Shown here one piece after another: positions 7,101-57,200 of a DNA stretch of 64,000 nt. The position numbers and the translations under genes were made by a program. The stretch comes from Euglena gracilis (Eukaryota). The first letter of the stretch is position 1. Every line of letters begins with the position of its first letter. A model generated the notes under the pieces. The model had not been told where the DNA came from and did no database searches. It worked only from the letters and a program-made list of their open reading frames with translations. The stretch covers positions 19,640,642 through 19,704,641 of the forward strand of contig CP154954.1 of the NCBI GenBank assembly GCA_039621445.1, given 5' to 3'.

Positions 7101-10100
7101 GCTTCGCTCTTACTCTAAAGAGATAAGAGCTCAGCGACCCACCCACCCTACCCCCCCCCTCCCCCAGGGTCCAAGGCTAAAAAAACATCTGTCCCCAGCC
7201 CGGGCGTGGGAGAGGCCCTGCACCTCCCCGCTGCGGGCGGCAGCCCCGGAGGCGTTGGCGAGGTGGTCCCACGGCTTCGGCCCCGCGAAGTGGATGATGG
7301 CGAGGTCCTCCACCCGCCACGCCCGGGGGAATGGCCCCGCCACACCCGGTGCGCGGGCGTGCGGCTGCAATGCGCCTTTGCGGGAGACAAGAACCTGTTG
7401 TCGTCCAACTGCCCAGGCGGCTGGAATTCACTCGTTGATGGGGGTCCGGGGCTGGAAAAACGCTGCCGGCGGGCCGGCTGGGCCTCCCCCCCAGGGGCGG
7501 GGTCAGATTTTTTTAAGCTGTGCCCTGGACAAGGGTTTTCCATTGGCGGTGTTGGCCACATGGCGGGGAAAGCACATCCCCAAAAGGCTGGGCTTCGGGA
7601 TCTCATCGCAAAACTGTGTGAAAGGAAATTGTAATTGGGGGGGGGGGGTAGTTGTCTGGGTCTGAAAATGCCGGCGCTGCCTCAGAAATGGCCTTCCATC
7701 TCGAAACTCAAAGACCTCCACGACTTCTTTCCCAATGCTCCTCAGGAGATTTTTGACAGCACTGTTCCGTTCCCTGTTCCCTTCTCTTCATTTCATGCGG
7801 AGGCAACTCATTTTGCAAGGAAAGCACCTTTTTCTCTGTACCCGTTTGGTCCCCTTTCCTGAAGTGAGGGCCGATTCCACACGGGCGCCATGGGTGTTTC
7901 TGTTCACCCCTCCACCTCCTCGGTTCTCGGGTCTCCCGAGATGTGCCGTCCCCACCCGTGGCCGAGCGGCGCCATCGGAGGCGGTTGCGGGGCAGCGACA
8001 GCACAATCTGGTCGGCGTTGTAGCGGTAGGACAGGTCCGGTCAGGGAGGACCGTGGCAGCCATACAGATAAACAGCTTGACTCAGCCACGTCCAGGGGAG
8101 GACAGACTTTTGCACACTCTGTCAGGGGCCTGGCTCTCATGCCAACGAGAAACCCTGTTGTTATGCAAGCCGGGGAAATGATCAGGCAGGTCGGACACAG
8201 GTCTGGTTAAACATTTGCCTCAAACCCTCAAACCCTCAAACCCTGCCCGCAGGTGTAACCCCCCCTGTTTAAGTGCACGGTGCCCAAGTGGTGTGCAGTG
8301 TCTAAATAAGGGTCACACCTCCCGAGGGCCCGAAAGTGATGTTCAAAAAAATGCACCCCCAAGAAAGCCACTTTACACTGAACCCCTTGGTAGCAGTCAG
8401 GTTGTGCCCAACATAAGTTTCACACCCCTGAGGGTCCGAAACGATGGTCCAATAAAGTGCGCACCTCGTTTTGGGGGGGGGGTTACCAAGGCCCAGCCAA
8501 AGACAGGGCCTTTGGGCTTCATCTCAGCCACCTGGCTGGGATGACGCCCCAGGAGGTGCCGGGGCCGCCCCGGGCACGTGCAGCGGTCTACGAAGTACGA
8601 GTTGAGGAAGCCGCCGTCGCCGCCGTCCCACGATGGCAGGTCCCGCATCCGCCGCAGCATATCCCGCCAGCTGGCGGGCCGGGCCATGTGGGGAACTTGA
8701 TCCATTGGTGCATTAGGGTGGGTAAACCCCCCCAAGTAACATCCCCCGGTGTGTTATTTGGGCACCCGAGCTGGGGCCCCAGGGGGGGGGGGTGGGTGTT
8801 ATTTGGGGGGGTATTTTTATATGGAAAACCAAACGAAAACAGGGGGGTGTTATTTGGGCGCTTGAAATCGGCCCGGGGGGGGGGGTTCGGGGAGGGGGTT
8901 TAGTCGGCTGACTGGTCGGCCGACTACCACTGCCCCCCGCCCAACCGACTAGGCCTACTACCCACTACCCCCCCCCCCAGTCTACTGTCTGCTGCCAATG
9001 AGCACACAAACAAACGCTTGGAATAGGGGGTCCACCTACCAGGACAGGGGTGGGGGGTCAACCGCCCCACCCAACACCCATGGGGTTCCGGGAACTGCCG
9101 AACAGCCCGGCTGCCAATGCTGCCGACGGGCGGGGGGCACCACCAGTGGTTTCCATGCACTTGGTGACGTTCCCCGTGAGACGACACGAACACGGGGGAA
9201 ACTTGCAGGGGAGGAACGCTGCGAATGCGCTGCCGTTTTGAATAAACACTGAAGGAAGGGATTAGGGCAGACCCCCTGGGGGGATTGGCGTCCAACACGT
9301 CCGGATGGCTGCAATGAACCGCCCCGAACGATCTGTGCCTTCAAAGCATACAAGCAGTTAGTCACTGGCCGACCCCCCCTCCACAAGGGGGTGGGTGACT
9401 GGTTTTTTTTTCAGAATGAATGACTGGTTTTTGGACCGGACCTTCCCCCCCTCCCCCCCCCGGGGGGGGGGGGCGACAAAAAACCCATTAAAATAACCCT
9501 GCATCGAAGGCGCCAGGTCACCCCTCTAACTGATCTTGGCCTTTTTTCACGTTTCTGGAATTTTTCCCTTGGATTTCAGAGTGGCCGACCTGTAGGGGGT
9601 AATGACTGACTGTTTTCCTGAAAAAAATGAGGGTTTTTTTTTAGAAATGACTTGAAATCCCCACCTCCATCCTGGTGGGTGTTATGGCCCACCGGCTCTC
9701 CTGGAAGACCTCCGCGTCGGGCTGGAGCACCATCACGCCGGGGTTCCACATGTCACAGCAGTCACGGGCTGCGGCCACATGCTTGGCGGAGGGTGGGCCA
9801 GGGTGTGCCGCTTCAGGTGCCAGCCACTAAATCTCTGGCGATGGAGGTTGAACGATGGAACCGCCCACCGCACGCCACACAGACAGGGATGCTGGGGTCA
9901 GAACCAGCAATGCTCACGCGGTATTCGTGTGTTGCTGAGCCAGAGGGGATAACCGAAGAAGGCATGTCCGCAACACATGACACACACTCCAGAGGGGGCC
10001 CTCTGGGGGGAGAGAATGGAGGTGGGCAGTGTCTTTGGTCGGCCATTTGCCACAACCTGGACAGATGTAGGCTGAAGAGCTCATCCACATTACTCAGTAC

Positions 10101-54217: not shown

Positions 54218-57200
54218 TCAGAAGCACGACAGGGGGCCCCAGCGCTTCTTGGCCTCGTCGCGACACCAGCGGTGGTACGGGTGCGCGTCGCTGACCCGGA
54301 GCAACGCCCGGAGCGTCAGGGAGGGCCCCATGGCAGCGATGGCCGTGCCGGGGGACGCAGCAGAGTTTGGGGTTGACGCGCAGCGCAGGTGAGAAGGGCA
54401 GCGCCAGAAAGGGGCATGTGTCTGAATGGATGTGGAGGGGGGGGGCTGGCATTAGTGTAACCCCCCCCCCGGGAAACTGTCACCTGACAGGTTGGCCGGT
54501 ACCGGGGACGCTGACAACTTCCGAAACTGACAGGTTGGCCAGTGATGGGGATCCCGACAGTTCCCCAGGCGGGACCCTGACAGGTTCTCGGGCACGACAG
54601 TTTCCCGGGGGGTGGGGGGGGGGTAGGTAAGAGTCACCAAGGGGTGGGGGTGGCACGGGGCCCAGCGGGGCGAACTGCCGGAGATCGTAGTCGCTGGTCT
54701 CGTTCAACAGGGCGTCGGCGCGGCGCCACTCCGCCGGGAAGTTGCGGAGGTACGAGTTCCAGTAGCCGCGGCGGCAGCCCGGCGGGGCGGCGGCCCAATG
54801 CCATTGTGTCATTTGTGTCCCAATGCAGGGGGGGGGATTGATATCGGAGGCCTTCGGAAAAATTGCGGGAAAAAAATGCGGAAAAAATGCGGAAATTGCG
54901 GAAAAAATGCGGAAATTGCGGAAAAAATTGCGGAAATTGCAGAAAAAAATGCGGAAAATTTTATATCGGGAATATACACATTTCTGCTTGAGAGGACTTA
55001 GAAATTTTTCAACTGTGAGGTTCAGAACACCGCAACACCCACGTCGATGCATGTGCGGAACGCGTGTACTCTGCCCAATCATCCTCAAAACAATCAAGTT
55101 GAAGCAAAGGGTAATTGATGCGCAAAAGGCTCATACAGGCAGACATCTGAAAAGATCATAAATGAAACTGCTGAAATTAATGGTCTGAAAAACCTTTGAG
55201 TTGCAACATGCGTCTTGACGCTGGCATTGAACAATGCTTCACCCCCATGCCCTTTCCCTCTCTTTCTTTTGTTGGCAGGTGCACCTGTGAGAAAAGCTGG
55301 TAAACTGGGGGAAGAAAACAACAAAACACAATAGCACACCTGTTGATCCATTTGAAGAATGGCTTGAACTCGTTGCATCTTCCATCTTCGGTGGTGGGGA
55401 AAAAAATTCTGCGAATGGGAAAAAATTGCGGAAAAATTGCGGAAATTGCGGAAAAAATGCGAAAAATTGCGGATAATTGCGATAATTGCGGGAAAATTGC
55501 GGAAATTGCGGGAAAATTGTGGATATCAATTTCCCCCCCTGCCCAATGTCAGCAGGGTTGGAATCCAAATCTGAGGCCATTTCCCCACCTCTGCATCTCA
55601 CTATTTATAATTGTCAGTAGGCAGGATGCCAGGTCATTGTTGTATGGCAATGGACCCAACGAGGCAGAGGTATGCGCACTGGTGAACACCGAAGTCAAAT
55701 CACCTTCGCTGGAAAAAGAAAATAAAATAATAAGTGGAATACGTCTCGCGCGCGCGACACATTTTTTTTCTTTTGGGACTCATCTTAAGCTGCGCCGTTC
55801 TGCAACAGCGATTCAGAGGAGCCTTTGACAACAGGCGCCTGGCTGGGCAGCTGTCGCCACTCAGGCAGCGGAGCTCCTCGCGCTTCTCCTTGGTGCGGAA
55901 GCCGGTGTAGCCGCTGGCGTGGCGCTTCCACATCCAGTCCTGGAGGGACTTGCTGTGGAAGTGCTTGAGGTGGTATGCTGTGTCGTTCAGGGCAGGCCTG
56001 GTGGCAGCAGAGGGGCTGGAACCTGTCATCATCGGCGATGACCGCCCCGACCCCAATTCAGTTTGTGTGATTTATGCTATATATGCTATAGAATATTATA
56101 TATATTATGCAGATATTACATTGTTATATGCATACATTGCATTGCTTATGCTATGTGTGTGTGTGTGTGTGTGTGCTCATATGATCTGGTGGCACCACAG
56201 CTCCACAAAAACAATGTGGCAATGCTCCAGCCGACCAAGCCGCTGGCCTTTGAGATGTGTGCAGTGCGCAGACCACACTCTGCAGCCTGGTACCGAATTC
56301 TCGCCGCTGCCCGCACCGGCACCAGCAGCGCACATCACATGTGTCGGCTGGCGGCCACAGCCCCCCTGGGCGATGTTGCAGCCCTCCAGCACCGTCAGCT
56401 GGTGCGGGGACGGGAGGGTGCGGAAGCAGCGGCGGCTGACGAGGAACTTCCCGTTGAGGCGGCCAAAATGCGTCGCGTTGACCGAGTCGTGGACGCAGAG
56501 GGCGGCCCGGCGGTGGTACGCCTCGATAGTCAGCGTGGTGGGGAAATCCGGCCGCTTTTCATGGCCCCGGCCAGGCCGGAGCCCCAACGCATGCGGCAAC
56601 CTCTCTGGCCAACAGAGAGCTGTGAAGCATCAGGAGGCCATGTGAAGAATCTGCCCAGGATATGTATGCATCGACTCGATTGGTACCTGTCACTGGCGGG
56701 GGTGACCCTCGTTGATTTCCATTGCTCTGGGCAAAAGATGTCGACTTTAAATGAACATAGCACAGCACCTCCATAATCGCTTTAAAACTTCTCAGGGGCA
56801 TTAGGCGTTTGTACAACCAAAAGCACTACAGCTGCGCAGATGTGAGGAAGGGTGAGGGTCCAGGCTGGGTGGAGGACCCGAACATCACCCACGGCAACGC
56901 CACTGCCCCGGTACCGTTACGCTCGGCAGCCGCCACCAGGCTTGAGGTAGCCTCTGCTTGGAATGCCATCCCATCATTGAAAGAATCCCCCCATGGAAAA
57001 AATAACTTGACCTGACATGTGTGCCCCCTGTGCCCCTGTGTGGGCTGTGATTTGACAACCAAATGTGCCCCCCCCCCTCCACACAAGCGGTTGCAGGCAG
57101 ACCGCCAGCGCCATTGCCAGTGCCAACGCCGCCGACTTAGGCGGCCTAACTCGCACTTAGCTTTGAAAGTGACTGTAAATTTGCGCCGACGCGCAAATCC

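What the first reader, a model, noticed from the sequence alone, without database searches (positions are those of the whole stretch)
8664..56870. The fixed +4/-6 stem register recurs in many older introns: possible decayed hAT footprints
Seen, minus strand, each restoring a sensible frame: 8664-9700 (AGCCGGTGGGCC/GGCCCGCCAGCT, FQ|DML); 24919-26454 (CAGGGCGCCA/TGCCGTCCTG, L|RRG); 35096-35952 (CAGAGCCGGA/TTCGGCGCTG, C|RRV); 38567-39505 (CGGGGCGGG/CCTGCCCCG, QN|GL); 56567-56870 (CAGCCTGGA/TCCGGCCTG, SS|GH); AK6 intron 1 (AGGGCGGGGCG/CGCCCCGCCCT). Stems are kept while TSD similarity is partial or lost. This suggests an age series from fresh MITE to anonymous intron (inference). A few introns deviate from the register by 1 nt.
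Basis: partly seen in the sequence, partly recalled or inferred. Interest (0 to 1): 0.72.

Follow-up and report, generated by a model that had tools for sequence, protein, structure and literature searches.

The report
Euglena intron stems and transposon footprints
The paired ends of these Euglena introns are the already published signal for cutting out the group's non-GT-AG introns and the six listed introns keep no transposon scar, but two other introns in the same stretch are copies of one small, likely hAT-type transposon family with its 8-base insertion scar partly intact, which supports the old idea that such introns start as transposons.

Summary
The window is Euglena gracilis-type DNA. 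The stems are real, and four of the six listed introns are confirmed by transcript-derived proteins. The fixed +4/-6 register is the published, knock-in-tested splice code of euglenid nonconventional introns, so its recurrence is not evidence of hAT ancestry. Over all 23 protein-anchored nonconventional introns there is a modest excess (3.48 vs 2.69, p=0.0016), confined to the predicted 8 positions but resting on three unlisted introns (p=0.15 without them). Two of these belong to one MITE family that also lies free in an intron, giving a three-step series: free copy (7/8), fresh intron 39580-40797 (7/8), decayed intron 20685-20912 (6/8). A published newly gained E. agilis intron has an 8/8 repeat in the same 5+3 split. 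hAT is inferred from TSD length and ends only. This scan reported the hAT 3+5=8 idea before on other DNA of this genome, at least nine times.

The parts
8664..9700 (-). Listed nonconventional intron in a GT8 glycosyltransferase-like gene; AGC/GCT stem at +4/-6; flank identity 4/8
   Evidence: no transcript anchor (one search found no ortholog); another exon of the gene gives a weak Glyco_transf_8 hit, E 0.0045, below cut-off
18163..18777 (-). Listed AK6 intron 1; 11 of 12 pairs, first pair mismatched; flank identity 2/8
   Evidence: gene identity from another exon; boundary chosen by frame and stem
24919..26454 (-). Listed nonconventional intron, DEAD-box helicase gene; CAG/CTG at +4/-6; flank identity 1/8
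35096..35952 (-). Listed nonconventional intron, EF-hand gene; single possible junction, not slidable; flank identity 4/8
38567..39505 (-). Listed nonconventional intron, EF-hand gene; CGG/CCG at +4/-6; flank identity 3/8
56567..56870 (-). Listed nonconventional intron, GT92 glycosyltransferase gene; CAG/CTG at +4/-6; flank identity 2/8; whole intron no more structured than shuffles (z 0.91)
39580..40797 (-). Unlisted, fresh MITE-intron in the EF-hand gene: element 39585-40794 with 12/12 TIR (CAGGGCTGTACG), 7/8 target duplication split 5 exon + 3 intron / 5 intron + 3 exon; spliced 8-mer equals the 3' copy
20685..20912 (-). Unlisted, decayed member of the same MITE family (element 20690-20909) serving as an intron of the DEAD-box gene; flank identity 6/8; arms 32/40 to the family; MFE pairs +4 with -6, z -4.5
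   Evidence: (76% over 80 nt to the free copy, E 9e-13)
35208..35492 (+). Free copy of the same MITE family nested inside listed intron 35096-35952; 11/12 TIR, 7/8 target duplication; not itself an intron
12386..12401 (+). Further end of the same family (no partner end found)
27468..28780 (-). Unlisted nonconventional intron of the DEAD-box gene with 6/8 flank identity but no similarity to a local family (18/40); 6-nt spacer as placed
47118..47942 (-). Unlisted nonconventional intron of the EF-hand gene; 4/8 flanks, arms 26/40 to the family (equal to the shuffled maximum): possible older member
42779..43582 (.). CAGGG-ended element inside a GT-AG intron with a decayed hAT dimerisation-domain match (PF05699, E 0.019, 15.2 bits, cut-off 21.4); flanks not intact
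48514..48844 (.). Free MITE with 12/12 TIR (CATACCATTGCT) and 8/8 target duplication inside a GT-AG intron

Best explanation
The +4/-6 stems are the working splice signal of euglenid nonconventional introns, kept by selection whatever an intron's origin, while two introns here are insertions of one MITE family with an 8-base target duplication (likely hAT type) and the older, anonymous introns likely arose the same way but have lost every trace. Mechanism. Shown: the element's terminal CAG...CTG arms sit 3 nt inside the donor and 5 nt inside the acceptor, so splicing removes the element plus 3+5 = 8 bases, one copy's worth of the duplication, and the exon reads as before (39580-40797). Published: spacer length and pairing matter for splicing; spacer sequence is written N in the code. 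Inferred: after insertion the duplicated bases inside the intron and the element's interior drift and collect nested insertions, while the terminal pairing is held by compensatory change, so TSD and family identity fade and the register stays. Inferred and untested: that this path produced the six listed introns, and that the mobilising enzyme is a hAT transposase.
For: Register peak at a 5-nt spacer in nonconventional but not GT-AG introns. 14 of 23 anchored introns fit the published code N3CDG/CHG N5-6|R (my count; the paper reports 61.2%). One family in three states: free 7/8, intron 7/8 with arms 35/40, intron 6/8 with arms 32/40; a mismatched pair reaches 7/8 in 0.2% of cases. Flank excess 3.48 vs 2.69 (p=0.0016) at offsets -5..+2, none at -13..-6 or +3..+10. 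Best-scoring windows start at -6 or -5 for all lengths 5-10. Independent published case: the strain-specific E. agilis gapC intron 4 has an 8/8 repeat in the same 5+3 split, while 48 junctions at eight older shared positions average 2.8/8 (my hand count from Tables S1-S3). A weak hAT dimerisation-domain remnant lies in a CAGGG-ended element.
Against: The six listed introns show no excess (2.67 vs 2.72) and no family similarity. The window-wide excess weakens to p=0.017 without the fresh intron, p=0.07 under within-gene permutation without it, and p=0.15 without the top three; the GT92 gene alone shows none (p=0.49). No correlation of flank identity with stem strength (rho 0.20, p=0.37) or with family similarity beyond the two members. 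No transposase was found in the intron-forming family; the only hAT match is below cut-off and in another element. Three CAGGG-ended elements here have 7-base duplications, so end motif and 8-base TSD do not always go together.
Confidence: 0.62

Rival explanations
1. The register is purely a property of the splicing machinery. Older introns have mixed origins (double-strand-break repair, conversion from GT-AG introns, other repeats), and 8-base-TSD MITEs are late arrivals that happen to fit the ruler.
For: Synthetic introns with no transposon sequence splice normally (PMC12501133). Listed introns are at background. Milanowski 2016 read the 8-nt repeat as a repair scar and discussed intron type conversion. 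Stems such as TGT/ACA, GGG/CCC and AGC/GCT keep the register without CAG ends.
Against: Repair scars have no reason to be exactly 8 bases and split 5+3 around inverted ends, as in 39580-40797 and in E. agilis gapC intron 4. The decayed member 20685-20912 shows the fading path exists. CAG/CTG stands at the stem end in 16 of 23 introns and also starts most free TSD-flanked elements here.
Confidence: 0.25
2. The intron-forming family belongs to another cut-and-paste superfamily that also makes 8-base (or 7-8-base) duplications, not to hAT.
For: The family has no coding sequence. 7-base duplications occur at three CAGGG-ended elements. That P-type and Merlin elements make 7-9-base duplications is recalled, not tested.
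Against: hAT elements have 8-base TSDs and short TIRs, and the Drosophila hAT MITE Mar has a TIR starting CAG (PMC3517528). The only transposase-like remnant found in the window is hAT-type.
Confidence: 0.08
3. The window-wide flank excess is a small-sample or compositional artefact, and only the one fresh insertion is real.
For: n=23; p=0.15 without three introns; none in GT92; I chose among equivalent slides by the stem.
Against: The second family member is identified by sequence similarity independent of its flanks. The excess persists in the 14 exactly anchored EF-hand and DEAD introns without the fresh one (3.07 vs 2.45, p=0.038). Adjacent windows show none.
Confidence: 0.05

Closest known systems
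Euglenid nonconventional introns and their splicing code 5'-N3CDG-/-CH'GN5-6|R (Nomura et al. 2025, PMC12501133; Milanowski et al. 2014 PMC3935182, 2016 PMC4770533)
   Same: Pairing of +4,+5,+6 with -8,-7,-6; 3-nt and 5-6-nt spacers; purine at the exon start (22 of 23); mixed with GT-AG introns in one gene; tolerated 1-nt deviation at the acceptor.
   Different: Nothing in the register itself. The papers do not tie the 3+5 spacers to an 8-base duplication or name hAT in the text I searched (0 occurrences of 'hAT' or 'TSD' in PMC12501133 main text and supplements; 0 of 'hAT' in PMC11282704).
MITE-origin hypothesis for euglenid introns (Milanowski 2014, 2016; review PMC11282704)
   Same: TIR-like ends, TSD-like repeats at junctions, ongoing gain; the 2016 paper asks whether CAG(G)/(C)CTG is a fingerprint of the source sequence and reports an 8-nt repeat at a newly gained intron.
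   Different: Here one family is seen as free element, fresh intron and decayed intron, and the repeat is placed as 5+3 around the TIRs; the 2016 paper read the 8-nt repeat as a double-strand-break scar.
Introner elements (Micromonas, Fritillaria, Amoebophrya, Polarella; as reviewed in PMC11282704)
   Same: Non-autonomous DNA transposons whose TIR/TSD geometry lets splicing remove the insertion.
   Different: Those reuse GT/AG-type or altered spliceosomal sites with 3-5-base duplications; here the signal is the paired TIR plus fixed spacers that add up to the duplication length.
hAT-superfamily MITEs (e.g. Mar, PMC3517528)
   Same: 8-base TSD, short TIR beginning CAG, no coding capacity.
   Different: No autonomous partner or transposase linked to this family; neighbouring CAGGG-ended elements have 7-base duplications.

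Membership tests
Euglenid nonconventional intron | Removed from mRNA without GT/GC-AG ends | tested here: met
   4 of 6 listed introns anchored on transcript-derived proteins with no GT/GC-AG option; 8664-9700 and AK6 intron 1 by frame only
Euglenid nonconventional intron | End pairing starting at +4 with -6 (3-nt and 5-6-nt spacers) | tested here: met
   AK6 intron 1 mismatched at the first pair
Euglenid nonconventional intron | CDG/CHG triplets and purine at the downstream exon start | tested here: met
   4 of 6 listed fit fully; 8664-9700 (AGC/GCT) and AK6 intron 1 (CAG/CTC) do not; all six have G at the exon start
Euglenid nonconventional intron | Excision as full-length circular RNA by a non-U2 route | not testable with these tools
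   no read-level data obtained
hAT-derived footprint (the six listed introns) | 8-base target duplication, whole or partial, above chance | tested here: not met
   mean 2.67/8 vs 2.72 expected
hAT-derived footprint (the six listed introns) | Arms related to a TIR family | tested here: not met
   18-23 of 40, shuffled 99th percentile 23; only 8 local elements served as the library, no genome was held
MITE-derived intron (39580-40797, 20685-20912) | TIRs, flanking duplication and other copies of the family outside exons | tested here: met
MITE-derived intron (39580-40797, 20685-20912) | Empty site with one copy of the target in another strain or paralog | not testable with these tools
   no genome held; orthologs available only as proteins
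hAT superfamily | 8-base TSD and short TIR | tested here: met
   7/8 in two copies, 6/8 in the third; criterion from PMC3517528
hAT superfamily | hAT transposase (PF05699 dimerisation domain) in the element or an autonomous partner with the same ends | tested here: inconclusive
   one sub-threshold match in a different CAGGG-ended element, 1 of 15 frames; none among 62 of 134 stop-free stretches scanned

The most novel reading that the evidence does not exclude
The 3-nt and 5-nt spacers of the euglenid splice code are the two parts of a hAT 8-base target duplication and CAG/CTG are the transposon ends. The splicing system is then tuned to erase hAT insertions without a scar, and most of the genome's hundreds of thousands of nonconventional introns, the six listed included, are domesticated hAT MITEs of graded age.
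Probability: 0.4. Interest if true: 0.8.

Novelty: new variant of a known kind. Interest (0 to 1): 0.45.

Why it matters
The origin of euglenid nonconventional introns (about 72% of introns in E. agilis) is an open question, and MITE origin has been a hypothesis since 2014. The 3+5=8 arithmetic turns it into a sharp genome-wide test and would explain why the splice code has these spacer lengths. This window adds one family caught in three states and shows the limit of the argument: the register alone proves nothing, and old introns fall to background, so ancestry must be shown statistically or by empty sites.

Tried and rejected
Whole genome: none held, so no genome-wide test or copy number. 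Ortholog of the GT8 gene: not found (3 weak hits, best E 7e-6, not used), so I left GT8 introns out of the main test. Enumerating their junctions by stem gave many alternatives (output partly cut). Correlation of flank identity with stem strength: none. Reading 8664-9700 as a CAG/CTG intron in another register: breaks the frame (from the sequence). Transposase search: 15 frames with stops read as X gave one sub-threshold hAT match; 62 of 134 stop-free stretches gave none. The 206-nt foldback at 58743-59238 is not an intron boundary. Literature: five searches on the origin question and one requiring all of Euglena, intron, hAT, 8-bp, noncanonical (0 papers) found no paper naming hAT or the 3+5=8 link; subscription journals are not covered. 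A search for 7-base hAT subgroups gave nothing usable.
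Full report
Source and genes. The window holds five minus-strand genes with both GT-AG and non-GT-AG introns. Single-exon searches returned transcript-derived proteins: P0001 (EG_transcript_6694, EF-hand protein, 100% over the query), P0003 (EG_transcript_7585, DEAD-box helicase, 100%), and orthologs P0002 and P0004 from another transcriptome. That these labels mean Euglena gracilis and Euglena longa is recalled. P0001 and P0003 map to the window exon by exon (P0001 differs at two residues and one 1-base gap). 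Pfam gives EF-hand, DEAD/Helicase_C and Glyco_transf_92; an AK6 exon matches solved AK6 structures. No genome was held and no reads were laid, so the test set is this window.

Observation. The quoted arms are present at +4/-6 in all five coordinate pairs and the joins give the quoted frames. Enumerating junctions that reproduce the proteins confirms 24919-26454, 35096-35952 and 38567-39505 and, through the ortholog, 56567-56870. 8664-9700 and AK6 intron 1 (18163-18777) rest on frame and stem. From the three anchored genes I took all 23 introns without a GT/GC-AG option (7 EF-hand, 8 DEAD, 8 GT92) and all 20 with one; four unanchored AK6/GT8 introns were kept as a secondary set and the other GT8 introns left out. 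Where several junctions gave the same protein I chose by the stem, which makes the spacer tally partly circular. The scan over spacers is less so: stems from +4 peak at a 5-nt spacer (5.74; 5.86 in the 7 non-slidable introns) and GT-AG introns are flat.

The register is known. Milanowski 2016 (PMC4770533; passages and supplement read) names pairing of +4,5,6 with -8,-7,-6 as the most conserved feature. Nomura 2025 (PMC12501133; parts 1 and 3 of 6, passages and a supplement word search) shows by knock-in that 3-nt and 5-6-nt spacers and the pairing are needed, that synthetic introns splice, and that 61.2% of nonconventional introns fit the code; 14 of my 23 fit it. MITE origin and TSD-like repeats were proposed in PMC3935182 and reviewed in PMC11282704 (passages); PMC11170887 (passages) repeats the hypothesis. 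Figure 1B of Nomura, a sliding-distance chart that bears on this, is a figure I could not see.

Identity between (last 5 exon + first 3 intron) and (last 5 intron + first 3 exon) is 4,1,4,3,2,2 for the six listed introns, mean 2.67 against 2.72 expected. Their arms score 18-23 of 40 against the best of eight free elements in the window, inside the shuffled range. They carry no detectable footprint; six introns cannot exclude a small residue. Over all 23 the mean is 3.48 against 2.69 (p=0.0016), with 3 at 6/8 or more (p=0.0065), and the adjacent 8-nt windows show no excess. The signal is fragile: p=0.017 without the best intron, p=0.15 without the best three, p=0.021 when permuting within genes (0.07 without the best), and absent in GT92. 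Permutation also removes composition shared by both junctions, so it may be conservative. Flank identity does not correlate with stem strength or, beyond two introns, with family similarity.

What carries the signal. A TIR scan found a family with ends CAGGGCTGTACG. One copy, 35208-35492, lies free inside listed intron 35096-35952 with a 7/8 duplication. A second, 39585-40794, sits in an EF-hand exon with a 7/8 duplication; the transcript-derived protein requires removal of the element plus 8 bases, and the junction with 3 bases before and 5 after the element is one of seven equivalent slides, the only one with a perfect stem at +4/-6. A third, 20690-20909, is the DEAD-box intron 20685-20912: 6/8 flanks, arms 32/40, 76% identity over 80 nt to the free copy, and a fold that pairs +4 with -6. 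Intron 47118-47942 (4/8, 26/40) may be an older member. This is a real, if short, age series, made of introns the finding did not list.

Independent support. In the 2016 supplement the strain-specific gapC intron 4 of E. agilis has an 8/8 repeat in the same 5+3 split around inverted ends; the authors read it as a repair scar. By my hand count, 48 junctions at eight older shared positions hold 135 matches, 2.8 of 8; I left out the six rows of hsp90 position 9, three of which repeat the 5' ends of position 8, and the conventional introns. Young is 8/8 and old is background, as in this window. The new intron's ends (CATTACC...GGTATG) resemble those of the free 8/8 element at 48514-48844 (CATACC).

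Is it hAT? 8-base TSD and a short TIR starting CAG match hAT MITEs (PMC3517528, passages; PMC6004678, passages). A decayed PF05699 match lies in a different CAGGG-ended element at 42779-43582, below cut-off. No transposase is tied to the intron-forming family, and three CAGGG-ended elements have 7-base duplications. I call it likely hAT, not shown.

Novelty and verdict. Six literature searches found no paper stating the hAT link or the 3+5=8 arithmetic; subscription journals and bioRxiv supplements were out of reach. This scan has reported the same idea on other DNA of this genome at least nine times; those notes are not evidence and I did not check their loci. As filed, the finding over-reads a known splice code, and its six examples fail its own test. 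The underlying model gains modest support from two unlisted introns, a localized flank excess and one published case. Interest 0.45.

Noticed in passing
window 16221-16926, 39747-40723, 54826-55541: CAGGG-ended TIR elements nested in nonconventional introns with 7-base, not 8-base, duplications (6/7, 7/7, 7/7); the first two are one family with a TTCGTACTTA tandem repeat. Could relate to the 3 of 23 introns with a 4-nt acceptor spacer.
   Followed up: partly
window 61377-62318 and 62761-62928: Further free elements with CAGG ends and 8/8 duplications inside introns of the GT92 gene; the second landed in a CA repeat, so its duplication is uninformative.
   Followed up: partly
window about 44720: An EF-hand exon has one A fewer in a run than the transcript-derived protein needs (frameshift near residue 257); likely an assembly homopolymer error. 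Two other residues (39, 228) differ from P0001.
   Followed up: partly
window 54250-63460: All eight mapped introns of the GT92 gene are nonconventional, and five deviate from the 5-nt spacer or the CDG triplet.
   Followed up: partly
window 26993-27417 and 54318-54666: Introns that hold the +4/-6 register with TGT/ACA and GGG/CCC stems, outside the published CDG/CHG code.
   Followed up: no
window 58743-59238, within 57136-59861: Foldback with 206-nt arms (97%) rich in a GCGCTTAAGCGC palindrome, inside a larger inverted-end element in intron 56943-60494; related motifs near 36600-36990.
   Followed up: no
window 1133-3464 (minus): Long intron-free open stretches (454 and 239 codons) with no Pfam match above noise; possibly a mobile-element remnant.
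   Followed up: partly
PMC4770533 Table S2, hsp90 position 9: The 5' intron ends for strains WI, PO and WA repeat those of position 8, probably a table slip.
   Followed up: no
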